Assembly: GCA_963844965.1 (NCBI GenBank)
Contig: CAWJQC010000008.1
Location: forward strand, 92,185 to 156,184
DNA from: an uncultured bacterium
GTDB taxonomy: Bacteria; Patescibacteriota; Minisyncoccia; UBA6257; 2-01-FULL-56-20
Length of the DNA stretch: 64,000 bases
Reading direction: 5' to 3'
The notes under the pieces are model-generated. The model saw only the letters and a program-made list of their open reading frames with translations. It had not been told where the DNA came from and searched no databases. How positions within the stretch are numbered: the stretch's first letter is position 1; each line of letters starts with the position of its first letter. Positions 7,101-24,629 of the stretch are shown here, in pieces. A program made the translations under genes and the position numbers.

Positions 7101-7349
7101 TTAGCCGATAATACCCGCGCCGAAGATCGGCGCCTTGGGATTGCCCAGCCAGACCGCAAGCATGAAGACAGTGAGTAGGATGGCAATAAGCAGAAGCAGC
7201 AAGCTTGTGGTAGCGGAGCCTGTGGTAGTGGGTTCCGACTTCAAAATCGGCATCGGTGGTATACGAAAAGACAAGAAGGCAAAAATGAGGGAAGCCAACA
7301 CTATGATCGCGATGCGCACCAAGATTGACGGGCAAAACAAATCCTCCAT
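7101..7349 (-). CDS. small hydrophobic protein (hypothetical)
   Basis: 82 aa, two predicted TM segments. Preferred over the overlapping plus-strand ORF because a terminator follows it. Confidence 0.3.
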   Translation of the reverse strand: MEDLFCPSILVRIAIIVLASLIFAFLSFRIPPMPILKSEPTTTGSATTSLLLLLIAILLTVFMLAVWLGNPKAPIFGAGIIG

Positions 7350-7416
7350 CGGTCACCTCGCCTACAGAATTCAACCACGGAACTAGTTTGACTATAAAGC
7401 GGTAAGTTGCGTCGTG

Positions 7417-8346
7417 TCAAATGCAACCGCCGAAAGTGAAGGCATACGCCCGCAGTCCACGGTCTTTCGCGAAAATTATGAGCTCGCCGCGCGGGGGAGC
7501 CGCCAACGGTCCGCCACCGAAGTCCTTCGCGTTCGCGAGATTGTACATTTTAGTTTCACTTACCTCCAATTCCTTCAAAAGTTTTCCGTCAAGCTCCACG
7601 CGGACCTTTGCAGCGCGCTCGCCATCCGCTCCCATCACGAGATTAATTTCCATCGCTTCAAAATTGAGCGACAGATAATCAACGAATTCTTCGGTTTTCC
7701 TTTCGTACTCAATATATTCCGGATAAACTTTCCAATCACCGGAGAAATTCCAGGTTTTTCCGGCGCGGCCGCGCATCGTACCGAGATAGGTTTCCGGCGT
7801 GGTTGGATAACAAACCCCGCCTTCGCCCTCCGTGGCCTTGACAACGGAGGGCAACTTCTCCCCCGGGTTAATTTCCGAAAGCGCCTTTCGGATTGCCTCT
7901 TCGGTCTCCGCATAAGCTCCCTCTCCGGCATGCTCGTATACTGCTTGGCCATCTTTATTTATCAAAAATTTATGCGGCCAGGAGTTATTGGAATATAAAC
8001 TCCAAATTTGATAGTCGCTATCCATCACGACAGGATATTCAATTCCGAATTCCTTTATGGCCCTCGCGACGTTTTCAACATTCTTCTCAAATTCAAATTC
8101 TGGAGTATGCACGCCAACGATCACGAGACCGAATTTTGCGTATTTATCGTGCCAGCTTCTTATGTGCGGCAGGGTACGGATGCAGTTCACGCAGGAATAG
8201 GTCCAAAAATCCACAAGCACGACATGCTTGCCGCGCAAATCTTTCATACTAAGGCGCTGTTCGCCGCCCAATCCCCCGCCGCTGGGCAAAAGGCCGGCGG
8301 GTAAGTTGAACCAGCGCAAATTTGGAGGAAACTCCGGTGAATGCAT
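7417..8346 (-). CDS. thioredoxin-fold (redoxin/AhpC-TSA-like) protein with C-terminal extension
   Basis: VVLVDFWTYSCVNC CxxC active-site context, 309 aa. Confidence 0.65.
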   Translation of the reverse strand: MHSPEFPPNLRWFNLPAGLLPSGGGLGGEQRLSMKDLRGKHVVLVDFWTYSCVNCIRTLPHIRSWHDKYAKFGLVIVGVHTPEFEFEKNVENVARAIKEFGIEYPVVMDSDYQIWSLYSNNSWPHKFLINKDGQAVYEHAGEGAYAETEEAIRKALSEINPGEKLPSVVKATEGEGGVCYPTTPETYLGTMRGRAGKTWNFSGDWKVYPEYIEYERKTEEFVDYLSLNFEAMEINLVMGADGERAAKVRVELDGKLLKELEVSETKMYNLANAKDFGGGPLAAPPRGELIIFAKDRGLRAYAFTFGGCI

Positions 8347-8370
8347 TGTTTAAATATTAATTTGAACCGC

Positions 8371-8411
8371 GAAAAAAAACAAACACCCCTGCGCGCTACG
8401 CGTCAGGGGTG
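8371..8411 (-). terminator. Rho-independent terminator overlapping the stop codon
   Basis: CACCCCTGcgcgctacgcgtCAGGGGTG stem followed by TTTGTTTTTTTT on the minus strand. Confidence 0.65.
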
Positions 8412-8912
8412 AAACTTCCTGATGATTCTCACCGAAAAGTCGGCCGCAAAAAATTCCTTGTCCCTCGGGCACTTTTTCCCATATGCCTCGGGGTTGGTTT
8501 GATAATCCACGATGTGGCCGACTTCATGGAACAAATCGCCCACCGTCGCGTCCTCCTGAAGGATAATCTCATTAGTGTCGGGCCAGCAGAACGATGTGCT
8601 TGATTCTTCAATGCCAACGCGGTAGCAGAGATACAGGTACGGCCGTAAAAATGTCTTTCGCATGTCCTTCGGCAGAATATAAACGCGCGGGACATCCAGG
8701 TTGCCAAGGCCGGCGCGCGTCAAACCACCGTGAGCGATAAATTCCTTCGTGCTGTCGCGACGCAAGAGAAAACCCGGATTGGAAATAATGCTGAAGCCGA
8801 CAGTGACGTAAAAAAAGGCAAAGATTATGCACGCGTAGACCGGACCGCGAAACAAATCGGGCAGCGGCTTGGCCAAAAAATCAAACCAGAGCCAGCGCAG
8901 GGATTTTTTCAT
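8403..8912 (-). CDS. membrane-anchored putative Zn-metallopeptidase (HExxH)
   Basis: 169 aa, N-terminal TM segment, HEVGH motif. Confidence 0.5.
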   Translation of the reverse strand: MKKSLRWLWFDFLAKPLPDLFRGPVYACIIFAFFYVTVGFSIISNPGFLLRRDSTKEFIAHGGLTRAGLGNLDVPRVYILPKDMRKTFLRPYLYLCYRVGIEESSTSFCWPDTNEIILQEDATVGDLFHEVGHIVDYQTNPEAYGKKCPRDKEFFAADFSVRIIRKFHP

Positions 8913-9087
8913 GAACCACCTCGGTTTATATGTCCTCAGGATCCTATTCTTAGATTACCACTATTTGAAACAAAATCTACCGCACGGCTCCATGGTCCGT
9001 GCCTGTATATCACATGGCAGATACTGCGCAAAAATCAAAAATCTTGTACAATACAGGTCAGCAACTATAAAAACAAGGAGGTGTTTC

Positions 9088-9417
9088 GTGGCGGAGGAAA
9101 AAAATAATAAGCAGAAACTCGCTGCTATCATCGCGTATGTAAGAAAACGGCGGAGGGAATCCAGAATAAAAATCGGCGTACCCCAGCCGCAAACCTCATG
9201 CTGGGGCGGTGGCATAGGAGAATTCGGCAATCTTGTTGAACTTAGTTTACCGTACAGACACGAAGAAGAATGGGATGAGCTCAAGGACCAGGAAACCCTT
9301 GACGGCGTACACCGGTATGTTTCCTATAAACCGCCAAAAAAACCAGAAAAAATGAAGGGAGCCGCAATTAGCGGCCCTTTTTATTTTTTTTGGAGGTGCC
9401 TCACCCGAGGACGTTAG
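9088..9417 (+). CDS. hypothetical small protein (GTG start; 3' end uncertain, ORF runs through a terminator hairpin)
   Basis: Sigma70-like promoter TTGTAC-16-TATAAA (9044-9071) and RBS AAGGAGG precede GTG 9088. The longer track ORF 8869.. was rejected. Confidence 0.35.
   Translation: MAEEKNNKQKLAAIIAYVRKRRRESRIKIGVPQPQTSCWGGGIGEFGNLVELSLPYRHEEEWDELKDQETLDGVHRYVSYKPPKKPEKMKGAAISGPFYFFWRCLTRGR
9361..9391 (+). terminator. Rho-independent terminator
   Basis: GCCGCaattaGCGGC then CCTTTTTATTTTTTTT. Confidence 0.6.
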
Positions 9418-9421
9418 AACC
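9395..9421 (+). repeat. E1 repeat copy a (GGTGCCTCACCCGAGGACGTTAGAACC), immediately 3' of a terminator
   Basis: One of four related ~27-nt copies at 9395, 10364, 11375 and 11685. Confidence 0.7.
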
Positions 9422-9456
9422 TGTTTTACAGAAATGGCCAGCAAATTGTGAGTCCG

Positions 9457-9480
9457 GCAGGTTCGAATCCTGTAGGGGTG
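9457..9480 (+). other. tRNA 3'-end-like fragment (T-arm GCAGG-TTCGAAT-CCTGT plus 3' acceptor strand), no matching 5' half
   Basis: Canonical T-loop TTCGAAT in a 5-bp stem followed by AGGGGTG. No complementary CACCCCT acceptor 5' strand was found upstream. Confidence 0.45.
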
Positions 9481-9497
9481 TCTGCTCCAGAACTGTG

Positions 9498-9533
9498 TTT
9501 GAGAGGAAAAACGATACGACGTATATATTCCGG
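9498..9533 (+). promoter_or_regulatory. E2 repeat copy a: conserved sigma70-like promoter (TTGAGA-17-TATATA)
   Basis: tttgagaggaaaaacgatacgacgtatatattccgg, near-identical to 10739-10775. Lies upstream of ORF 9657 with a ~120-nt structured leader. Confidence 0.55.
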
Positions 9534-9656
9534 GCCTAGGGCCAACCAACGAGTCGGCTGCCCGTCCTTGACGATTACCAGCTCCTTGTGCTTTCATCTA
9601 AATGGCTGGCGAGCCGCAAGCGAGCCAGACTACTTGACAAAGGAGGAAGTGGCCCA

Positions 9657-9950
9657 ATGAGAAACGGGAAACTTCTGCAAATTCCAGGTACTGAACTTTG
9701 GAACGGTTTGGAGGCTCTGCAGGTGGGGGGTGTCACGCCCAACCTGTGGCAGCGTCTCCGCTTAGATCTTTATTTTAGACGATATGCTGTCGAGATGATG
9801 GTCCAAGAGAACATACGCCACCCCGGCCTTTCCGAAGCGGTGGAAGGTTTCCATTACGACACCCCTCGCTCCAAACTCGCTAACGGACTTCGGGAAAGGG
9901 GTTTCTATGTTGTGAAAGGTGAGATACGTAGAGGCCCTCGAGCCACATAG
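9657..9950 (+). CDS. hypothetical protein (GC-rich cassette ORF 1)
   Basis: RBS AAGGAGG 8 nt upstream of ATG 9657; 97 aa. Confidence 0.45.
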   Translation: MRNGKLLQIPGTELWNGLEALQVGGVTPNLWQRLRLDLYFRRYAVEMMVQENIRHPGLSEAVEGFHYDTPRSKLANGLRERGFYVVKGEIRRGPRAT

Positions 9951-9969
9951 CACGTGGCCAGTACACGCA

Positions 9970-10287
9970 ATGGACATCGTTTTCTACCCAATACAGCCAT
10001 TCCGCGCTCTTAATCAGGAAGAGGCCAGAGCTGAGCTCGACGAACGCAAGGTCCGTCCTGCTTACACCGAGGAATTTCTGCGTTTTTGCATGACCAAGCT
10101 TGCATTGGATACCACCTGTAGCCGACAAATCGGCGGGGTGGTAGCTCTGAATGCCTACCGAGATGATTGCGGAGTTCGCGAATATCTTTGTCTGGATCGC
10201 CGCCTTGACGGCAATCCGGCATTGGGTTTCTGGCACCCCGAGCCGACTTTCCCTGGGACGTGGGCGTTTCTGGGAGTCAGGCCATAG
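9970..10287 (+). CDS. hypothetical protein (GC-rich cassette ORF 2; alternative GTG start 9919)
   Basis: 105-122 aa. A strong terminator follows directly. Confidence 0.4.
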   Translation: MDIVFYPIQPFRALNQEEARAELDERKVRPAYTEEFLRFCMTKLALDTTCSRQIGGVVALNAYRDDCGVREYLCLDRRLDGNPALGFWHPEPTFPGTWAFLGVRP

Positions 10288-10318
10288 GTTCAATCTTGCA
10301 GATCGAGCAACTGCTCGT

Positions 10319-10349
10319 CGCCACGACAAAAAAATCGTGGCGCTTTTTT
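10319..10349 (+). terminator. Rho-independent terminator
   Basis: GCCACGAcaaaaaaaTCGTGGC then GCTTTTTTA. Confidence 0.7.
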
Positions 10350-10363
10350 ACGAAAAACACCAG

Positions 10364-10390
10364 GGTGCCTCACTAAAGGACGTCAGAACC
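10364..10390 (+). repeat. E1 repeat copy b (GGTGCCTCACTAAAGGACGTCAGAACC)
   Basis: Follows a terminator, as in copy a. Confidence 0.7.
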
Positions 10391-10493
10391 AGAATAATCG
10401 GGGCGTTACTGAAAAATCGGTATATTTACATACCGGATTTAACTTTGCCAATAACTGCGAGGTAAAGGAATCTATCAGATTTGATAAGCTTCT

Positions 10494-10682
10494 TTACTTT
10501 CCGGCCTTGTCTAAAATCTTTGAACCTATGTTTATTGAACCGACCAAGACAACACCCGCCAGAATTGCATAAATAAGAGAAAATCCTATCGTATCAATCA
10601 AGTATAACGAGAACATAAAAGAAATGCAGACGATTATAATAGCCGGAATCCAAATCAACAAGTAGCCGAGGAGTTTTTTCAT
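10494..10682 (-). CDS. small two-TM membrane peptide (hypothetical)
   Basis: 62 aa, strongly hydrophobic. Confidence 0.35.
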   Translation of the reverse strand: MKKLLGYLLIWIPAIIIVCISFMFSLYLIDTIGFSLIYAILAGVVLVGSINIGSKILDKAGK

Positions 10683-10738
10683 AGATTTATTTTACCTTAT
10701 TTTACCCCACCCCACCACTCACCGTATCTCCAGGCATA

Positions 10739-10775
10739 TTTGAGCGGAAAAACGATATGACGATATATATTCCGG
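10739..10775 (+). promoter_or_regulatory. E2 repeat copy b: conserved promoter (TTGAGC-18-TATATA)
   Basis: tttgagcggaaaaacgatatgacgatatatattccgg. Lies upstream of ORF 10912. Confidence 0.55.
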
Positions 10776-10911
10776 ATGTAAAATCGCAAAATATTCCAGG
10801 CCATAGGCAGTATCGACAATTTTTCTCATCTGTTATATAAGGGATATAGGCCCGCCAGCAAGTATGCGGCGGATGAGGCAGTTTACATCATAAAACAAGG
10901 AGGCGAACGCA

Positions 10912-11316
10912 ATGCGACGATTTGGATTTCTGGCACTCTTTTTGGGAATGACCATTCTGGGGACGTCTGCGCTGGCGGGATCCGCCAAAGACGGCGAATA
11001 TGTTCTTGAAAAAAATCAAATACAACCCATGGGTGAAGATAAGAGCTGCGGTCCATATTTTATCCTGACCACATATGGCGGGCGTTCTGCGGAGAGGATT
11101 GTCTTTCATTTCGTTGACGATGATGGAAAGATTCAGGCCGACGCAATCAAGATTTCGATGGTTTCGGTCGTCGGCGACAAAGACAAAAAAGTCCCAACCG
11201 TTCAGTTCGAAAAAAACGAGGACGAGAGGACAATGATTTTGCGAATTAGCCCGGAGGACAGGCAAGAGGCAACCTGCCTTAAAGCCAAGAGCGACGATAC
11301 CAAAGGAGGCCGCTGA
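10912..11316 (+). CDS. secreted hypothetical protein (signal peptide)
   Basis: RBS AAGGAGG; N-terminal MRRFGFLALFLGMTILGTSALAGSA signal-peptide-like segment; 134 aa. Confidence 0.5.
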   Translation: MRRFGFLALFLGMTILGTSALAGSAKDGEYVLEKNQIQPMGEDKSCGPYFILTTYGGRSAERIVFHFVDDDGKIQADAIKISMVSVVGDKDKKVPTVQFEKNEDERTMILRISPEDRQEATCLKAKSDDTKGGR

Positions 11317-11340
11317 ATCTAAACGGCCCCTTTTTCTTTT
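11308..11340 (+). terminator. Rho-independent terminator overlapping the stop codon
   Basis: GGCCGctgaatctaaaCGGCC then CCTTTTTCTTTT. Confidence 0.6.
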
Positions 11341-11374
11341 CTCGACGCCCTAAAAATATCAACATTTTTCGCCG

Positions 11375-11401
11375 GGTGCCTCACTTGAGGATGTTATTGT
11401 T
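11375..11401 (+). repeat. E1 repeat copy c (GGTGCCTCACTTGAGGATGTTATTGTT)
   Basis: Follows a terminator. Confidence 0.6.
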
Positions 11402-11515
11402 TCGAAAAGAAAAAACCGCCTCGGAAAACCAAGACGGTCGATGCACGTTTCCAGTACATTGGCTTGAGTGAACGGACGGCGAGGGGTATAATGAAGTTAC
11501 TAAAGAAGAAATAGC

Positions 11516-11617
11516 ATGGCTCATCGCGGAGGCAAGAGAACGAAAAATAAGAGGAACCGAAAAGCACGGCGAAAGTTTAATAGTCGGGTTATTTTCCCGT
11601 CAGAAAGAAGGAGATGA
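11516..11617 (+). CDS. very basic 33-aa peptide (MAHRGGKRTKNKRNRKARRKF...), speculative
   Basis: Short ORF not in the track; no strong RBS. Confidence 0.15.
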   Translation: MAHRGGKRTKNKRNRKARRKFNSRVIFPSERRR

Positions 11618-11684
11618 TATCGTGGGCAGTCCGGTCGCGCCGACATGGTAGCCGTATCTGTCCCTCGATAATAAAAATACTTGG

Positions 11685-11711
11685 GGTGCCTTGTTGGATG
11701 TGTTTAGAACC
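11685..11711 (+). repeat. E1 repeat copy d (GGTGCCTTGTTGGATGTGTTTAGAACC; 3-nt deletion variant)
   Basis: Shares the GGTGCC…GTTTAGAACC ends. Confidence 0.5.
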
Positions 11712-11764
11712 GTGAATTGGAATGAATTACGGGAAGGTATGGCGAATTTAAGCTTTGTGGGCGG

Positions 11765-12181
11765 TTAATAAACCCAGATTCCAATAGCAAGCAGGATAAT
11801 CCGCACGAGCATAAAGGCAATTAAGTGGAGCATATAAAATATACCCTTTTCGAACATATCAATGCCCCAAATTTTGAAACAGATAAGAATGACGGCGGAG
11901 TGGACGATAAGGTAAGAGAAACTGCCAATTATCCGGTTGACAGATGGAGGAAGGCCGTTGGATTGGCGCATCCTTCCGAAAGTCATTGCGGTAAAAACGA
12001 CAGAAACCAACACGAGGAAGATACCGATTACGATCGTTGGGATGAGGGGTGAAATAAACGATTGCCACAATTGCACGAAAGGCGCATCAAGGGCGTTAAA
12101 TATCGGCTGGAGCATTTGGGTCGCCGAGGCGACAGCGCTGGAGGAATACACTGGGAAGATAACCGGCGGTGTAGATGTCAT
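11765..12181 (-). CDS. hypothetical integral membrane protein
   Basis: 138 aa, 4 hydrophobic segments. Confidence 0.45.
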   Translation of the reverse strand: MTSTPPVIFPVYSSSAVASATQMLQPIFNALDAPFVQLWQSFISPLIPTIVIGIFLVLVSVVFTAMTFGRMRQSNGLPPSVNRIIGSFSYLIVHSAVILICFKIWGIDMFEKGIFYMLHLIAFMLVRIILLAIGIWVY

Positions 12182-12246
12182 CCCAGCAACATACAGCAGT
12201 TATGGCGGGCTGGTCAATTGGTGGCCGCGGGTTATATAATATCTTT

Positions 12247-13482
12247 AATGAAAATCGAGAGCCAAAAACTCAACGTAACCGAGGCGTTTAAAAACTTCTA
12301 TTACATCGTCCCGCCGTATCAGCGGGAGTATGTTTGGAAGGAGAGAAACGTTGCCCAGTTATTTAACGATATTTACGACGAATATACCAACGATAAAAAC
12401 TCCGAATACTTTATCGGCAGTATCGTCGTAAATAAGCGTGAGGATGGCACATACGAAGTGATCGACGGCCAACAGCGATTAACCACTTTATTTATTAGTC
12501 TTTGTGCGCTTAAACGTGTGTTCAAAAATTCCCAAGATCATTTAAGCGTTATAGAAAATCTGCTCACTTCCCCGACGACGAACGATAAAGGCGAAATCAT
12601 CCGCAGCTCCCATCTTGAACTGCAATATGAAGGCACAGCAGACATTTTACGCGATATTTTGAATGACAAGGAATTAAGCAAAAAAACGTCTGGTTCGGCA
12701 GAACACATCAAAGAAGCCCTCGAAACCATCCTCGAATACCTGAACGCAAACTTCAAAACAGAAAATGACCGAACGCGGTTTTATGGATATTTTATGCACA
12801 AGGTAAATTTTGTGCAGATTGAAACGCCGAGCGTGAGCGACGCTTTGAAAATTTTTGAAACGATCAATGAGCGCGGCGTTGGCCTGAATCCGATGGATTT
12901 GCTCAAAAATTTGATATTTCAGCAATTGCCACGCGACGAGTTTCAAAAGGTTAATGTCGAATGGAAGAAAATAACGAGGACGTTGGAAAAGAATGGGCAG
13001 AAGCCACTCCGCTTTTTACGCTACTTCATAATGGCCAACTATCAGGTCAAGGATACTAAAGACGTCGAGGTTGTGCGTGAGGACGAGATTTACGACTGGG
13101 TGGTAAGACACGCCGAGGTTTGCGGCTATAGGAAAGATCCATTCGGGTTTGTGGGAAAAATCGCCACAGATGCCGAAGCCTACGTTTCATTTTTCAACGG
13201 TATGACGCTGGAGGGCAAGAATAGCGTCGAATTGGAAAACATCAGGAGCTTGGGCGGCGGTGCATTCAGCCAACATTTAGTTATGCTGCTTGCGGCCAAA
13301 GAGTTGCCCGAAGACCTTTTTCTTCATCTCGTTCGACAGGTGGAAAGCTTATCTTTTACTACTTCATTACGAAAACTCCCGCGAAAGCACTGGAAGCCCG
13401 TTTTTCCCGATGGGCGGATGATTTGCGTGATGTAGCGGGCGATGCAGATCAAAAAGCCGCCCTCAATAAATTCATAATGTAA
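12247..13482 (+). CDS. DUF262 (ParB-like nuclease / GmrSD-BrxU N-terminal domain) protein, frameshifted near 13345 and ending inside the IS3 terminal repeat
   Basis: N-terminal YYIVPPYQREYVWK…VIDGQQRLTTLF is the DUF262 signature (DGQQR). The alternate frame after ~13350 reads …LIFYYFITKTPAKALEARFSRWADDLRDVAGDADQKAALNKFIM*. No DUF1524/HNH-like C-terminal domain is present. Confidence 0.7.
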
Positions 13483-13534
13483 AGGATAGGTTTCTTTAGA
13501 CAGTGATTCGACGGCTTTTTGCCGTTTTTTTTCG

Positions 13535-14317
13535 TTAAGCCGCAATCTTCTCGGCAAACACGGACGGCGGCATCTTGAGGGCGGAGTGGATCCGCGTGTG
13601 GTTGTACTGCCACAAGGTGCTGTAGATCTCCGCCACGAGCTCGCCGAAGGTCCCGAACCGGTTGGGATCACCGAGGTCAATCTTGAACTTGTCATAGAAC
13701 GATTCCTGGTAGCCGTTTTCCCATGGGGCACCGGGCCGCGACCGCGAGATCGTGATGCCACAGTCCCCCAGTGTATCGGTGAACGCTCGTGCCTTGTACT
13801 CGCTGCCGTTGTCCGAATGGAAGATGACCGGATGCGGATGGTGGAAAAGCGCGTTGGCCAGGGTCTGTATCGTGAGGGGCGATCCTTTCCGCAACGCCAC
13901 ATGGACGCCCATCAATCGTCTCGTGAAAAGATCGAGTATCGTGGACACGTACACTTTCTTGCCGCGATACAGGAACTCCGTGAAATCGGTTGCCCAGACG
14001 TGGTTCGCGTACGAGGGCATGATGGCAAGTAAGAGGTTCGGAAAGGCCCGCGATGCCTTTGATTTCCGGTATTTCCTGCCTCGCCTCCGGTACGGCCTTA
14101 TGCCGAAGATTCGCATGACGCGCTGCGCTCGCGGACGGCTCACGCCCAGAGCTTGTCCCAAGCGCCGGGAACCGTATGCCGGATGGCGCTGCAATTCTTC
14201 TTCCATGCGGATCTTGAGCGCCCAATCTTTCTTGTCCTGCCGTGATACGTAGTAGAGCGATGCCCGCGAGACGCCCATGGCCCGCGCCATGGCGGACTTG
14301 TTCCGCTTTTCCGTCAA
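13535..14317 (-). CDS. IS3-family transposase OrfB (DDE integrase core, rve domain), expressed as OrfAB fusion by -1 frameshift
   Basis: HSDNGSEYKARAF…ITISRSRPGAPWENGYQESF (DDE/rve). The -1 frame from the CCAAAAAAAG heptamer gives KELTEKRNKSAMARA, which continues OrfB. Confidence 0.8.
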   Translation of the reverse strand: MTEKRNKSAMARAMGVSRASLYYVSRQDKKDWALKIRMEEELQRHPAYGSRRLGQALGVSRPRAQRVMRIFGIRPYRRRGRKYRKSKASRAFPNLLLAIMPSYANHVWATDFTEFLYRGKKVYVSTILDLFTRRLMGVHVALRKGSPLTIQTLANALFHHPHPVIFHSDNGSEYKARAFTDTLGDCGITISRSRPGAPWENGYQESFYDKFKIDLGDPNRFGTFGELVAEIYSTLWQYNHTRIHSALKMPPSVFAEKIAA

Positions 14318-14577
14318 TTCTTTTTTTGGGCCTGGGAGAGCTTCACGGTGAGCTCGCCCACCACTTCAAACAGCTCCCTGTTCTGCTTCTGGAGACGGCT
14401 GAACTCGCCCCAGGAAGGGACGCCCGATGCTCCTGCGCCTAGCCAATTGTAGATGGTGGACTCGTGCAAACCGTGGTCCTTCGCAGCCTGCGCTACGGGG
14501 ACTCCTTCTTCCTTCACCCGGCGGAGGATGTCCGCCTTCACTTCCTTCGCAATCCGATGCCCTTTTTTGTTGCTCAT
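14314..14577 (-). CDS. IS3-family transposase OrfA (HTH)
   Basis: 87 aa, helix-turn-helix. Ends KLSQAQKKN* at the A7G slippery run (plus 14320-14328). Confidence 0.8.
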   Translation of the reverse strand: MSNKKGHRIAKEVKADILRRVKEEGVPVAQAAKDHGLHESTIYNWLGAGASGVPSWGEFSRLQKQNRELFEVVGELTVKLSQAQKKN

Positions 14578-14719
14578 GACACAATGGTAGTTTGTTTCGA
14601 CCTTTGTGTCTAAATTATCCTATCCGGGTCAGTTGAACTCAAAACAGTTTGCCATCAATGCGGATTATTGTTATAAACAAGGCAGCATGACGCCACCCAA
14701 AGCGAAACAAGGAGAGGGA

Positions 14720-15427
14720 ATGAATTTGAAGCTCGGCTTTTCTACCGGCTGTTTACATAGGGCACAATTGCATATTCGTGAGAAGCTGGCCATCATTCAA
14801 AAAATGGGCTGTCGCGCCGTGGAGCTCGGATATGTCAGACTGAAGGATTTCAATTCCGGCGAGCTTGAAACGATAACGACCGAGAATCTCCACGATTTTG
14901 ATCATGTCAGCTTACACGCACCAAAGTTCGATTATGGCAACAACGATGGAACTATCGGGATATTCGAACGAATACGAAAACTGAACAGGGTAAGAAAATT
15001 GGACCTGGTTGTTTTTCACCCCGACACCATCGTCGATCTAGACGTTTTTACGAGAGCCGATTTCAATGTGGCTCTTGAGAACACGGACAACAGAAAAGAA
15101 TTTTGTCGGCGCCCAGAAGAGTTAGAACGATTACTTGCTGGCAACAACTTCGGATTTGTCCTCGATGTAAACCATGTATACAGCAATGATGCCTCGATGA
15201 GGATGGCTGCCGAGTTTTATAAAAAGCTTGGCGGTAGGATTTCCGAGGTTCATCTGAGTGGTTATCGTGGTTACCACGAGCCGCTTTTTGAAACGAAGCA
15301 AGTCGAAATTGTACAGTCAATAATAGATTTCGGCGTGCCGATAATCGTGGAGGGAGAACTGACCCCGGAAAATATCCAAAGTGAACAAGAATATATTCTG
15401 GGCATCATCGGCGGGCTTGAACAATAG
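14720..15427 (+). CDS. sugar phosphate isomerase/epimerase (xylose-isomerase-like TIM barrel)
   Basis: RBS AAGGAGAGGG then ATG 14720. MNLKLGFSTGCL…VELGY…VFHP…HLSGY is the pattern of the AP-endonuclease-2/TIM-barrel family. Confidence 0.55.
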   Translation: MNLKLGFSTGCLHRAQLHIREKLAIIQKMGCRAVELGYVRLKDFNSGELETITTENLHDFDHVSLHAPKFDYGNNDGTIGIFERIRKLNRVRKLDLVVFHPDTIVDLDVFTRADFNVALENTDNRKEFCRRPEELERLLAGNNFGFVLDVNHVYSNDASMRMAAEFYKKLGGRISEVHLSGYRGYHEPLFETKQVEIVQSIIDFGVPIIVEGELTPENIQSEQEYILGIIGGLEQ

Positions 15428-21923: not shown

Positions 21924-22054
21924 CCCGTTAGAAATAGGGCGCAACGCCGCCGCTCGTCCTCTTTATTATTTAATATTCGGCCATTTTGTTGATGTAATAT
22001 CCGCAAAGCGTCCGCGCCTGCCTGCCGGCAGGCAGGATTTCTAACGGGACCCAT
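21919..22054 (-). mobile_element. MITE-like element copy 1 (TIR TCCCGTTAGAAAT; flanks ATGGG/ATGAG) between the clpB-like stop and the MFS start
   Basis: On the minus strand: ATGGG-TCCCGTTAGAAAT…ATTTCTAACGGG-ATGAG. Contains the 20-bp palindrome at 22017-22036. Confidence 0.6.
22017..22036. repeat. perfect 20-bp palindrome CCTGCCTGCCGGCAGGCAGG (copy 1 of 3)
   Basis: Identical at 31099-31118 and 38023-38042. Confidence 0.9.
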
Positions 22055-24629
22055 TACTGTTTTACTATCTGATCTCCCAGTTCCACAAAACCGACCTCGT
22101 CGCCCTGCGTCGTGAGTTTTATATGGCTCCCGTGCTCAACTTTTTTCTCCAAAATTTTCTGCGCGAGCGGCGCGCGCAATTTTTCTTCTATCACGCGCCG
22201 CAGAGGTCTCGCGCCGAACGCGGGATCATATCCGATCCGCGCGAAAAGTTTTATAACCGCCGGATCAATTTCCATCTTTATCCCCTGCTCGCTCACCAAC
22301 TCTGCGACATCCTTAAGATTCAGCGCGACTATTTTTTCCAAATCCGCCGGCTCTAAATTTTTGAACACGACAATCCGCGAGAACCTGTTCAAAAGTTCTG
22401 GTTTGAAAATGTCGGTCAGTTTTCTCTTCAGATAGTCGGCGATCTGCGCCACCGATTGACCCTGGCTCAGGGCGTCATTGATGATATCCGAATGGGCATT
22501 AGAGGTGGCGATTATAATCGTGTTCTCAAAATCAACCGTGCGGCCGAGATTATCCGTGAGCCGGCCATCGTCAAACACCTGCAAAAATAAATTCAAGATA
22601 TCAGGGAAGGCCTTCTCAAATTCATCCAAAAGGATCAAACTATACGGCTTTTGCAGAATCGCGTCCGTCAAAGCTCCGCTTACCTGGCCATCGGGCGTTC
22701 CGATAAACCTGAAAAAACTCTGCTTATCCTGATATTCCGTCATGTCAAACCTCACCATTTCCTTATCCGAACCGAATTGGACCTTCGCCAAGATTTTGGC
22801 GAGTTCGGTTTTGCCGACGCCGGTCGGACCGACGAAAAGAAAACTGGCGATCGGTCCGCCTGGCCGCGCGAGCCCGCTCCTGTACTCGCGCAGGGCATCC
22901 GCCACGACCCCCACCGCCTCCTCCTGGTCGATCATCCGTTCGTGTATTGTCTCCTCCAACTTGAGAAGTTTTTGCGCCTCGGCTTCGGTTGCCTCGTGCA
23001 GCGGAATATTTACCTTTGCTTCGGCCACGCTTACCACCCTGTCCGGCCCCACGTACTTTTCCCCGCGCCTTTGGGCGTCAACCAAAGCGCTCTTCAATAT
23101 CTCCTCGGCGCTTGAAGGCAGAAATTTACTGCGCAAATATTTTTTTGCGAGCACAACCGCCTTCTTTATCGCGCCGAAACTTATGGTTACCCTGAACTGA
23201 CGCTCGAGTATCAGACTCTCGTAGGTTAAAATTTTTTCCGCGTCGGCGACGCTCACTTCGCTCACCCTGATTATTTCAAACGCGCCAGCAAAATCGCTAC
23301 GCGGCTCTATGAACTGCTTGAAGTCGCGCGGAAAAGTGAGCCGATCACCGGAAAGGCATTGTTTGTTATTATCGGCATCAAGGCATCAGCGGCGGAAATG
23401 TACGCGGCGCCGGAGGTGCGCACCAAGTTGTGTATGTTCGGGATGTAAATGATGATGTTCCCGGCGATGGTGATTTCTTCAATTATGTCTTTGAGCCGCG
23501 CGGTCAGTACTTCGGGCGGCGCGCCCGCCACAAGACTTTCAAGCTCAAGCGACACCAACCGCTTGTCAAACAACGCCGGCGGAACTTCGTCCTTAACAAG
23601 TTCCGCGGCGAGGTGAGAAATTATGGTTTCCTTGCCGATGCCGGCCTCCCCGACCAAAATAGCGTTGGGATTTATCGGCCGCGCCAACACTTCCACCAGC
23701 CGTTCAAACTCCTCTTTGTGACCGATCAAAAAACCGGTCTGATTCTGGCGGGCAAGATCGGTAAAGTCGGTTGAATATTTATCAAGGGTAGGCGTCGGCC
23801 GCGACGTCCACGCCCTATTCATTATGCGGTGTCGTATTTTCGGAGCACCAAACACAAAAAAGCCGCCGAGCGTCACTGGAATGCGGCGACTCATACTATG
23901 ACCCAGGGAACTGAAGATCATAGCGCGCTCAAGGTCGCCTACCTCGATCCCAAAAATGTTGAAAAGTCGGCTCATGGCTTCGTTTTTGACGAGAGGCATC
24001 GCCGAAAACAGGTCACTTGATTCTATGAAGTTGTGGCTCGCGCCCATGGCCTGTTCCAAGGCCAAAAGCACGAGCGTTTCCGCGTTCGCCAATCTATCTT
24101 CTTTGGAAATCGCGGACCACTCCCCGCTTTTTGAACTCTCGCCGAGAAACGCTTCTGTTTTCTGTTTGAATTCCTCTGGTTTTACATCAAGACGCTTTAA
24201 CCCCTCTTCTATGTCGGACAAATTTAGAAGCTGATGCGCCGTTTCCAGAAAGAAATTCTGCTTGGTGATCATGCTCCGGTCAAATGCCCTCTCCAGGGCG
24301 GCGAACGCCTTCGGCCGCAGATAACTCGCCATATTAACTCTGCCTCTTTTCGGCAACTCTATAAGCGGCTTGTCGCCCTCGTTCAGGTGGAGAAAGCGGT
24401 CAAACAGGAACAAAGCGAGAAATATTCCCGCATAGCGCAGTCCCCAGACCCCGGAGAGAAGAAACGAAGCCGCCGTAGCCGCAGTCACGAGGTACATCAC
24501 ATAACTTAGAACTCTTACGAATAATCTGCCCGGAAACGTCATCAAGAGTCGCGGGTCCTTATAACAGAAAACCGGACCCTCTCCAGCGACGCCCGCTGAC
24601 GCTGTTCCTTTACTATTTTCTTCGCTCAT
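22054..24629 (-). CDS. ClpB/ClpC-like two-domain AAA+ ATPase with N-terminal membrane anchor; split by a frameshift near 23265-23310
   Basis: ORF 23307..24629 has 2 N-terminal TM helices and a first AAA+ domain D1 (ILVGEAGIGKET…IIIYIPNIHNLV; Walker A/B look degenerate). ORF 22054..23265 is a second AAA+ domain D2 with intact GPTGVGKTELAK Walker A, LILLDEFEKA Walker B and the sensor-2 motif GARPLRR. Confidence 0.7.

What the first reader, a model, noticed from the sequence alone, without database searches (positions are those of the whole stretch)
12247..14631. DUF262 (GmrSD/ParB-nuclease-like) defence-type gene truncated at its 3' end by an IS3-family insertion
The DUF262 ORF carries the DGQQR/ParB-like NTPase signature. 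It lacks the usual DUF1524/HNH-like C-terminal domain. It terminates with a stop codon that falls inside the left terminal repeat of a complete IS3-family element, which has OrfA, OrfB and a canonical A7G -1 frameshift site. The gene also has an internal frameshift near 13345. Defence genes are common IS targets, and this looks like insertional inactivation of a standalone type-IV-restriction-like system.
Basis: partly seen in the sequence, partly recalled or inferred. Interest (0 to 1): 0.55.

Follow-up and report, generated by a model that had tools for sequence, protein, structure and literature searches.

The report
Restriction gene remnant cut by IS
A phage-defence (GmrSD-type, modified-DNA-cutting) restriction gene in what is probably a tiny-genome Patescibacteria chromosome has lost its nuclease third at the edge of an intact IS3-family jumping gene and also carries a 1-base frameshift; this is an ordinary example of a defence gene being destroyed by a mobile element.

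Summary
The ORF starting at ATG 12248 is a GmrSD_N/DUF262 gene (Pfam E 2e-42, DGQQR present). A 1-nt deletion at 13348-13352 shifts its frame. Homology to about 110 full-length homologues of 586-613 aa (GmrSD_N + GmrSD_C) stops at residue 410 of about 592, at window base 13476. The stop TAA 13480-82 lies at bases 3-5 of a 1154-bp IS3-family element (13478-14631, minus strand). The element has OrfA, OrfB, an A7G -1 frameshift site, a DDE triad and TG...CA ends. I fixed those ends by comparing more than 15 related copies.

The whole His-Me/HNH nuclease domain is missing. It is not on the other side of the IS or anywhere else in the window, so this is an insertion plus loss of at least 546 bp, not a simple insertion.

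An independent assembly reproduces both the frameshift and the gene|IS junction. Ka/Ks of about 0.02 against the closest intact gene indicates recent inactivation.

There is no target-site duplication, but relatives of this IS also mostly lack one, so that absence is not diagnostic.

The main caveat is that the right junction could be an assembly collapse across IS copies. Overall this is ordinary and of low interest.

The parts
12211..12240 (+). Promoter-like site (TGGTCA-18-TATAAT, 10/12 matches) just upstream of the GmrSD start codon
   Evidence: This is a consensus match only.
12248..13351 (+). GmrSD-family pseudogene, segment 1: codons 1-368 in the original frame. It holds the GmrSD_N/DUF262 domain (aa 14-224, DGQQR at aa 73-77) and most of the helical linker.
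   Evidence: Pfam PF03235 E 2.3e-42. tblastn to P0002 aa 1-386 gives 84% identity. The 80-homologue HMM matches positions 1-383. All close homologues start MKIESQKL, so ATG 12248 is the true start.
13348..13352 (+). Site of the 1-nt deletion (frameshift): AGC TT(A) ATC has become AGCTTATC. Downstream, frame 0 reads 27 aberrant residues and stops at TAG 13433-35.
   Evidence: Single gap in the alignment to L001. The same deletion is present in the independently assembled Logan contig L073 and its protein P0121.
13352..13476 (+). GmrSD-family pseudogene, segment 2: codons about 369-410 in the -1-shifted frame (IFYYFITKTPAKALEARFSRWADDLRD...ALNKFI). This is the last part homologous to intact genes.
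   Evidence: tblastn to P0002 aa 368-410 gives 81% identity, E 3e-17. HMM positions 366-410 of 593.
13477..13482 (+). Junction codon ATG (A from the gene, TG from the IS), followed by stop TAA 13480-82, which is supplied by the IS terminal repeat
   Evidence: Sequence. IS end at 13478.
13478..14631 (-). Complete IS3-family insertion sequence, 1154 bp, 56.8% GC against 48.5% for the rest of the window
   Evidence: Homology to related copies L002-L011 and L081-L088 starts and stops at these bases to within a few nt; their shared TG...CA termini set the ends at 13478 and 14631. NF033516 scores 215 bits. GC. It is the only copy in the window.
13478..13502 (.). IS right terminal inverted repeat (orfB side); on the + strand it reads TGTAAAGGATAGGTTTCTTTAGACA
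   Evidence: Inverted repeat I2, 19 nt at 84%, plus the TG dinucleotide.
14607..14631 (.). IS left terminal inverted repeat (orfA side); on the minus strand it reads TGACCCGGATAGGATAATTTAGACA
   Evidence: The 37 nt after the TGAC are identical in 8 metagenome copies.
14314..14577 (-). IS orfA, 87 aa, helix-turn-helix
   Evidence: PF01527 HTH_Tnp_1 E 4e-9. The exact protein is recorded on 3 contigs in the database, so the IS is multi-copy in the source data.
14320..14327 (-). A AAA AAG (A7G) programmed -1 frameshift site joining orfA to orfB
   Evidence: Sequence. The fusion made at this site gives a full-length IS3 transposase match over positions 1-362 of 369.
13535..14317 (-). IS orfB, the DDE transposase core (D111, D169, E205, K212 in OrfB numbering)
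   Evidence: PF00665 rve E 1.4e-20. Motif positions. Relatives match residues 1-260 in full.
13510..13534 (+). Hairpin plus T-run (terminator-like on the + strand) inside the IS, about 30 nt after the new stop codon
   Evidence: This is a consensus match only.
14632..14719 (.). 88-bp spacer between the IS and the next gene. It carries no trace of the GmrSD 3' part.
   Evidence: tblastn and the C-terminal HMM against the whole window find nothing.
14720..15427 (+). Intact xylose-isomerase-like TIM-barrel gene (235 aa). It is a neighbour, not part of the GmrSD gene.
   Evidence: Homologues are 233-237 aa and come from Patescibacteria. PF01261 is weak. PADLOC PDC-M70B E 2e-32.

Best explanation
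The locus is the dead remnant of a single-chain GmrSD-family type IV (modification-dependent) restriction gene. It sits on a chromosome that is probably from a Patescibacteria/CPR bacterium.

**What intact relatives look like.** They are about 592 aa. They have an N-terminal ParB/Srx-like NTPase domain (DUF262, DGQQR), a helical linker of about 200 aa, and a C-terminal His-Me-finger/HNH nuclease (DUF1524, motif EIEHILP...LGNLTLLEKPHN).

**What has happened here.**
1. A 1154-bp IS3-family element abuts codon 410. Everything 3' of that point, meaning at least 546 bp that includes the entire nuclease domain, is absent. The IS tip supplies the stop codon.
2. A 1-nt deletion at codon 368/369 independently breaks the frame.

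**Most likely history (inferred).** The IS inserted into the linker region. The DNA between it and the present right flank was then lost, either by IS-mediated adjacent deletion or by recombination with a second copy in the same orientation.

**Consequence (inferred from mutagenesis of relatives).** With no nuclease domain the product cannot restrict DNA. The IS itself looks intact and recently active.
For: **Shown here**
- The GmrSD_N domain and DGQQR motif are present.
- The best PADLOC matches cover only profile positions 3-397 of 554 (Orf5, E 6e-72) and 4-400 of 562 (HEC-06, E 3e-56).
- About 110 of the 120 best homologues are 586-613 aa and carry PF03235 + PF07510.
- The closest intact gene product, P0002, is 86% identical. 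Its GmrSD_C domain is at 423-581 and its EIEHILP motif at 475.
- Homology ends at residue 410, window base 13476.
- An HMM of the C-terminal 183 positions finds nothing in a six-frame translation of all 64 kb (best E 6.9).
- A database search with the C-terminal region finds no near-identical orphan fragment.
- More than 15 independent copies fix the IS ends at 13478 and 14631.
- IS3 family membership is supported, with the A7G site and DDE triad in place.
- The exact OrfA protein occurs on 3 contigs, so the IS is multi-copy.
- The frameshift and the gene|IS junction are both reproduced in the independent Logan contig L073. It is 99.94% identical to window 7132-13507 and stops 30 nt inside the IS.
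- Against the L001 gene, Ka is 0.07, Ks is saturated and Ka/Ks is about 0.02. The gene was therefore under purifying selection until recently.

**From the literature**
- In HEC-06, the E471A/H472A nuclease-motif mutants and the Q79A/R80A DGQQR mutants abolish defence (bioRxiv 10.1101/2024.01.29.577857).
- Domain roles in the GmrSD family are described in PMC4619093.
- Homologues sit in defence islands, next to Eco57I-like, DpnI, MmeI-like RM and Fic genes.
Against: - There is no target-site duplication (TAA on the left, GTT on the right), so the insertion event itself is not directly documented.
- The right junction (IS|14632) has no independent support, and the IS is multi-copy. An assembler could have joined two different copies.
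- No syntenic relative was found. The pre-insertion arrangement and the size of the deletion are therefore unknown.
- The two assemblies that agree on the frameshift may derive from the same or closely related reads.
- The assignment to Patescibacteria rests only on the named hosts of the TIM-barrel homologues and of the IS relatives.
Confidence: 0.85

Rival explanations
1. Assembly artefact. The genome really contains [GmrSD 5' part]-IS-[GmrSD 3' part ... other DNA]-IS-[TIM-barrel gene]. The assembler collapsed two IS copies in the same orientation into one and dropped the interior. On this reading the gene is interrupted but not truncated.
For: - The IS is multi-copy in the source data: the exact OrfA protein is on 3 contigs.
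- The independent k-mer assembly breaks exactly 30 nt inside the IS.
- The flanks show no TSD.
Against: - No orphan GmrSD_C fragment at the expected identity of about 86% or more exists among called proteins from NCBI/ENA. The best fragments are 72-73% identical and come from other samples.
- Missing TSDs are the rule for this IS lineage even in a closed long-read genome, so their absence here does not point specifically to a chimera.
- Even under this reading the gene is still inactivated.
Confidence: 0.1
2. Simple IS insertion, with the remainder of the gene lying immediately on the other side of the IS. This is the classic insertional-inactivation picture.
For: This is the default expectation for an IS inside a gene.
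Against: - The 88 bp to the right of the IS run straight into an unrelated, intact TIM-barrel gene.
- tblastn with the C-terminal region and the C-terminal HMM find nothing anywhere in the window.
Confidence: 0.01
3. A naturally short DUF262-only protein that happens to end next to an IS, meaning there was no truncation.
For: A few entries of 364-494 aa carrying only PF03235 appear among the homologues (P0053, P0061, P0068, P0113).
Against: - Three of those short entries (P0053, P0061, P0068) are on contigs of about 1.4-4.3 kb, so they mostly look like fragments; P0113 has no contig listed.
- Every close relative (60-86% identity) on a contig long enough to hold the gene is 592-606 aa with both domains.
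- The window's reading frame stays homologous right up to the IS tip, and its stop codon is IS sequence.
Confidence: 0.02
4. The 1-nt frameshift is a sequencing or assembly error. On this reading the gene makes a 411-aa DUF262+linker protein that ends in the IS.
For: - The deletion sits in a short AA/TT context.
- The window differs from the Logan contig by three indels elsewhere, at 9404, 9926 and 10236, so at least one of the two assemblies contains indel errors or strain variants.
Against: Two independently produced assemblies carry the same deletion. The nuclease domain is missing in any case, so the functional verdict does not change.
Confidence: 0.1

Closest known systems
HEC-06 (GmrSD-like single-gene phage defence; PADLOC models PDLC04154-04157; Payne et al., bioRxiv 10.1101/2024.01.29.577857)
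   Same: The N-terminal DUF262 domain with DGQQR and the long helical linker align with the profile over positions 4-400 of 562 (E 2.8e-56). Intact relatives of the window gene share the full architecture, including an EH(I)xP nuclease motif.
   Different: The window copy lacks profile positions of about 400-562, which is the DUF1524 nuclease carrying the E471/H472 equivalents that are essential in HEC-06. It is also frameshifted. The PADLOC model named 'Orf5' (PDLC02688) scores higher (E 5.6e-72); the library gives no description of it.
GmrSD / Eco94GmrSD type IV restriction endonucleases (Machnicka et al. 2015, PMC4619093; He et al. 2015, PMC4437046)
   Same: Same domain family (Pfam GmrSD_N; intact relatives also have GmrSD_C) and the same (I/V)(I/V)DGQQRLTT motif. 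Homologues lie in defence islands.
   Different: The relationship is distant: it is a Pfam-level match only, and PADLOC mREase_IV gives only E 2e-13. Substrate specificity is unknown. The copy here is a pseudogene.
BrxU (HEC-05) and SspE, the structurally solved GmrSD-like proteins; also PDB 9JFL 'DUF262 domain-containing protein'
   Same: They share the DUF262 NTPase domain. P0002 against PDB 9jfl_B gives E 2.9e-10 over residues 2-223. SspE 6jiv gives E 1.5e-3. PADLOC SspE gives E 4e-16 and HEC-05 gives E 7e-13.
   Different: Only the N-terminal roughly 100-220 residues align. These are different subfamilies. SspE is 771 aa and senses phosphorothioate.
IS3 family insertion sequences (e.g. IS911, IS150, IS2)
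   Same: The element has OrfA (HTH) and OrfB (DDE) in the 0 and -1 frames, an A AAA AAG slippery site, D-58-D-36-E plus K at +7, TG...CA terminal inverted repeats, and NF033516 above its cut-off.
   Different: At 1154 bp it is shorter than I recall being typical for the family. No 3-5 bp target duplication is present here or in most relatives. The lineage is found almost only in Patescibacteria MAGs.

Membership tests
GmrSD family (fused DUF262-DUF1524 type IV restriction enzymes) | N-terminal DUF262/GmrSD_N (ParB/Srx-like) domain with a conserved DGQQR motif | tested here: met
   PF03235 E 2.3e-42 over aa 14-224. VIDGQQRLTTL is present at aa 71-81. The motif definition comes from PMC4619093.
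GmrSD family (fused DUF262-DUF1524 type IV restriction enzymes) | Helical linker of about 200-400 aa between the two domains | tested here: met
   Residues 225-410 align to HMM positions 225-410 of 593, built from 80 full-length homologues. The linker is cut near its end.
GmrSD family (fused DUF262-DUF1524 type IV restriction enzymes) | C-terminal DUF1524/GmrSD_C His-Me-finger nuclease with (E/D)H...N...N motifs | tested here: not met
   There is no PF07510 hit. No tblastn or HMM hit exists anywhere in the window. The domain is present at 423-581 in P0002. The locus is therefore a remnant of a family member, not a functional member.
GmrSD family (fused DUF262-DUF1524 type IV restriction enzymes) | Uninterrupted reading frame | tested here: not met
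   A 1-nt deletion lies at 13348-13352 and is reproduced in L073.
GmrSD family (fused DUF262-DUF1524 type IV restriction enzymes) | NTP-stimulated cleavage of modified (e.g. glc-hmC) DNA, or protection against phage | not testable with these tools
   This needs biochemistry or plaque assays on the intact homologue (e.g. P0002).
IS3 family insertion sequence | Transposase matching the curated IS3 model above its cut-off | tested here: met
   NF033516 scores 215.1 bits against a cut-off of 160, over model positions 1-362 of 369, using the OrfAB fusion.
IS3 family insertion sequence | Two overlapping ORFs (orfA with HTH, orfB with DDE) in the 0 and -1 frames, joined at an A6G/A7G slippery site | tested here: met
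   orfA is 14577..14314 and orfB is 14317..13535. The site CAA AAA AAG lies at 14328..14320.
IS3 family insertion sequence | DD(35)E catalytic triad with K/R seven residues after E | tested here: met
   D111, D169, E205 and K212 in OrfB, with spacings of 58 and 36. The residues were assigned by motif, not by structure.
IS3 family insertion sequence | Imperfect terminal inverted repeats ending 5'-TG...CA-3' | tested here: met
   The ends read TGACCCGGATAGGATAATTTAGACA and TGTAAAGGATAGGTTTCTTTAGACA. They were set by homology to more than 15 copies.
IS3 family insertion sequence | 3-5 bp target-site duplication | tested here: not met
   The flanks are TAA and GTT. 27 of 29 related elements also lack a 3-bp repeat. 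Possible causes are deletion or recombination, assembly error, or a property of the lineage.

The most novel reading that the evidence does not exclude
The IS belongs to an IS3-family lineage found mainly in Patescibacteria MAGs that, unlike canonical IS3 elements, leaves no 3-5 bp target duplication. Either it integrates with a blunt or 2-bp stagger, or its copies recombine so often in these roughly 0.8-1 Mb genomes that flanks are routinely scrambled. On that reading it would be a main driver of deletion of accessory (defence) genes in ultra-small genomes, with this locus as one example.
Probability: 0.2. Interest if true: 0.4.

Novelty: new member of a known kind. Interest (0 to 1): 0.15.

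Why it matters
The value is mostly for annotation.
- The 395-aa 'DUF262 protein' (P0001) should be flagged as a pseudogene.
- The database entry for the neighbouring TIM-barrel gene (273-aa P0195) starts inside the IS and is 38 codons too long.

Biologically, this is one more documented case of defence-gene turnover driven by a mobile element, here in a probable CPR/Patescibacteria genome where every kilobase counts. It opens no new question. The apparently TSD-less IS3 lineage is the only lead that might repay further work.

Tried and rejected
1. **Synteny to size the deletion.** I examined the loci of the closest intact GmrSD genes (L001, L074-L076) and of the closest TIM-barrel homologues (L077-L079). 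None shares flanks with the window, so the deletion size stays unknown.
2. **Other copies of this exact IS in the source genome.** OrfA (P0122), the OrfAB variant (P0125) and P0001 are not in the gene-position index. The IS-IS rearrangement idea could not be tested directly.
3. **The missing C-terminal part elsewhere.** I searched the window and the protein database. The best fragment, P0130, turned out to come from an unrelated run, SRR34068985.
4. **TSD as evidence of deletion.** I dropped this argument once related copies, including 8 in a closed 805-kb genome, proved to lack TSDs as well.
5. **In-silico precise excision of related copies.** This was meant to reveal ORFs spanning the insertion site. 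Only short, chance-like spans appeared, so it was uninformative.
6. **A possible lost partner gene.** The PDC-M70B hit on the TIM-barrel gene suggested that a partner 'A' gene might have been deleted. Relatives of the TIM-barrel gene have no A-like neighbour, and no paper mentions PDC-M70. I did not pursue this.
7. **Literature on IS3 elements in Patescibacteria.** The search found nothing relevant.
Full report
**1. What is in the sequence**

The + strand ORF begins at ATG 12248. All close homologues start MKIESQKL, so the longer TTG/GTG-initiated ORFs are over-extensions. A promoter-like TGGTCA-18-TATAAT lies at 12211-12240.

The translated product carries Pfam GmrSD_N (PF03235, formerly DUF262) at residues 14-224, E 2.3e-42. 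It has the family motif VIDGQQRLTTL. There is no GmrSD_C/DUF1524 hit.

In PADLOC the best models are 'Orf5' (PDLC02688, E 5.6e-72) and HEC-06 (PDLC04155, E 2.8e-56). Only profile positions 3-397 of 554 and 4-400 of 562 are matched, so the last roughly 160 positions are missing.

**2. The frameshift**

Frame 0 runs to TAG 13433-35, giving 395 aa. This is the database protein P0001, recorded on a 156,184-bp NCBI/ENA contig that is evidently the source of the window.

Against the closest intact gene (L001, product P0002), the DNA alignment shows a single 1-nt gap: GAAAGTTTGATTTTT in L001 against GAAAGCTT-ATCTTT in the window. That places a 1-nt deletion within 13348-13352. After it, homology continues in the shifted frame (IFYYFITKTPAKALEARFSRWADDLRD...ALNKFI; 81% identity to P0002 residues 368-410).

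An independently built Logan contig (L073, run ERR10755942, 6375 bp) equals window 7132-13507 at 99.94% identity. It carries the same deletion. Its four differences all lie at 9402-10236. The frameshift is therefore probably real, although the two assemblies may share reads.

**3. The truncation**

Of the 120 best homologues, about 110 are 586-613 aa and carry PF03235 + PF07510. The short ones are, apart from the window's own P0001 and one entry listed without a contig, on contigs of about 1-4 kb.

P0002 (592 aa, 86% identical) has GmrSD_N at 13-224 and GmrSD_C at 423-581. Its nuclease motifs are:
- EIEHILP at 475
- LGNLTLLEKPHN at 505
- NFFEDKK at 522
- the W...W motif at 567

These positions come, and the motif definitions from PMC4619093.

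An HMM built from 80 full-length homologues matches the window at positions 1-383 and 366-410 of 593, and nowhere else. An HMM of positions 411-593 finds nothing in a six-frame translation of the whole 64-kb window (best E 6.9). tblastn agrees. The last homologous base is 13476.

**4. The IS**

On the minus strand lie orfA (14577..14314; HTH_Tnp_1) and orfB (14317..13535; rve). They overlap at CAA AAA AAG (A7G, 14327..14320) in the canonical register.

The -1 fusion product scores 215 bits on NCBIfam NF033516 'IS3 family transposase', against a cut-off of 160. The DDE residues are D111, D169 and E205, with K212 at +7.

To place the ends I collected related copies:
- 71 loci from GTDB species-representative genomes, overwhelmingly Patescibacteria MAGs. 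One of them is a closed 805-kb genome, OY970216.1, with at least 8 identical copies.
- 8 metagenome contigs that share the exact 37-nt end.

In the copies related at about 75% nucleotide identity, homology to the window starts and stops within a few bases of 14631 and 13478, and their shared TG...CA termini set the ends at exactly those bases. The IS is therefore 13478-14631, 1154 bp.

The IS is 56.8% GC against 48.5% for the rest of the window. It is single-copy in the window. Its exact OrfA protein is recorded on three contigs, so it is multi-copy and recently active in the source data.

**5. More than a simple insertion**

To the right of the IS, 88 bp lead straight into an intact TIM-barrel gene. 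Its true start is ATG 14720, because homologues are 233-237 aa. No GmrSD 3' remnant exists there or anywhere else in the window.

No near-identical orphan GmrSD_C fragment is present among database proteins. The best fragments are 72-73% identical, and the one traced (P0130) comes from an unrelated run.

At least 546 bp have therefore been lost beside the IS. The likely routes are adjacent deletion or recombination between two copies in the same orientation.

The flanks show no target duplication (TAA against GTT). I do not use this as an argument, for these reasons:
- 7 of 8 copies in the closed genome OY970216.1 lack a 3-bp repeat.
- 4 of 4 two-flanked metagenome copies lack one.
- 27 of 29 elements overall lack one.

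No relative is syntenic with the window on either side. The original downstream content and the deletion size are unknown.

**6. Function and timing**

In intact relatives of this family, the DUF262 domain binds and hydrolyses NTP and the DUF1524 His-Me finger cleaves DNA (PMC4619093). In HEC-06, alanine substitutions in either the DGQQR motif or the EH nuclease motif abolish phage defence (bioRxiv 10.1101/2024.01.29.577857).

Homologues of the window gene lie among restriction and defence genes: Eco57I-like, DpnI, a T5orf172/ResIII helicase, DUF3800, an MmeI-like RM system and Fic.

By inference, the window copy lacks the whole nuclease domain and is frameshifted, so it cannot restrict DNA.

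Comparing the repaired 410 codons with L001 gives Ka 0.07 with saturated Ks, and Ka/Ks of about 0.02. The gene was evidently under purifying selection for essentially all of its divergence, and its inactivation is recent. The order of the two lesions cannot be told.

**7. Host**

The window carries housekeeping genes, including PolX, CTP synthase and a Pol I-like gene, so it is chromosomal.

The named homologues of the TIM-barrel gene come mostly from Patescibacteria: Yanofskybacteria, Buchananbacteria and 'Patescibacteria group'. The IS relatives are mostly in Patescibacteria MAGs as well. A Patescibacteria/CPR origin is probable but not proven.

**8. Caveats and rivals**

The main rival is an assembly collapse across two IS copies, which I put at about 0.1. 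The right junction has no independent support, and the k-mer assembly breaks 30 nt into the IS. Even then the gene would still be interrupted and frameshifted.

A naturally short DUF262-only protein and a simple insertion are both effectively excluded.

**9. Verdict**

This is an uncharacterised member of two well-known kinds: a GmrSD-like type IV restriction gene and an IS3-family IS. Together they show a well-known process, IS-mediated decay of a defence gene. Interest is low.

The only mildly unusual by-product is that this IS3 lineage, found mainly in Patescibacteria, seems to lack target-site duplications.

Noticed in passing
window 13478/14631; L003-L011, L013-L047, L082-L088: The IS3 lineage to which this element belongs, found mostly in Patescibacteria MAGs, rarely shows a target-site duplication. 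27 of 29 elements with definable TG...CA ends have no 3-bp direct repeat. 5 of 29 have a 2-bp repeat, against 2.1 expected by chance. The count includes 8 identical copies in the closed 805-kb genome OY970216.1.
   Followed up: partly
L003 1237-2395 and 3767-4925 (OY970216.1): Two identical IS copies in the same orientation lie 1.37 kb apart. Together they are flanked by the 5-bp direct repeat ATGAG, which could mark a composite transposon or be coincidence.
   Followed up: no
window 14606-15427: The database annotation of the TIM-barrel gene (P0195, 273 aa) starts at GTG 14606, inside the IS. Homologues are 233-237 aa, so the real start is ATG 14720. The protein matches the PADLOC candidate-defence model PDC-M70B (E 2e-32). 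Relatives of this gene have no recognisable 'A' partner beside them.
   Followed up: partly
window 9400-10380: The only differences between the window and the independent Logan contig L073 are here: a substitution plus a 1-nt indel at 9402-9404, +1 nt at 9926 and -1 nt at 10236. L073 has an open 239-aa ORF (about window 9656-10376) that is broken into overlapping ORFs in the window. The ORF has no Pfam or PADLOC hit. The region is more GC-rich, at about 54%.
   Followed up: partly
window 22054-24629 (-): A ClpB/ClpA-like gene is split into two ORFs in different frames: 440 aa at 23307..24629 and 403 aa at 22054..23265. Compared with an 879-aa ClpB from a relative, residues of about 317-541 are not matched. 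This may be another pseudogene or a divergent split gene.
   Followed up: partly
window 13510-13534 (+): A GC-rich hairpin followed by a T-run lies inside the IS, about 30 nt after the truncated gene's new stop. It is oriented to terminate transcription entering the IS from the GmrSD side.
   Followed up: no
L001 8513-16454; L074 3946-14581: Intact homologues of the GmrSD gene sit in defence or mobile islands. L001 has Fic, an MmeI-like type IIG RM gene with an S subunit, and a serine recombinase. L074 has an Eco57I-like gene, a T5orf172/ResIII helicase, DUF3800, DpnI, DUF2130 and DUF2779.
   Followed up: no
protein P0125 (346 aa, 331,718-bp contig of the source data): Another copy of the same IS is annotated as one 346-aa protein. 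It runs from OrfA into a wrong frame and re-enters the OrfB frame only near the C-terminus. This is either a degenerate copy or a mis-modelled frameshift.
   Followed up: no
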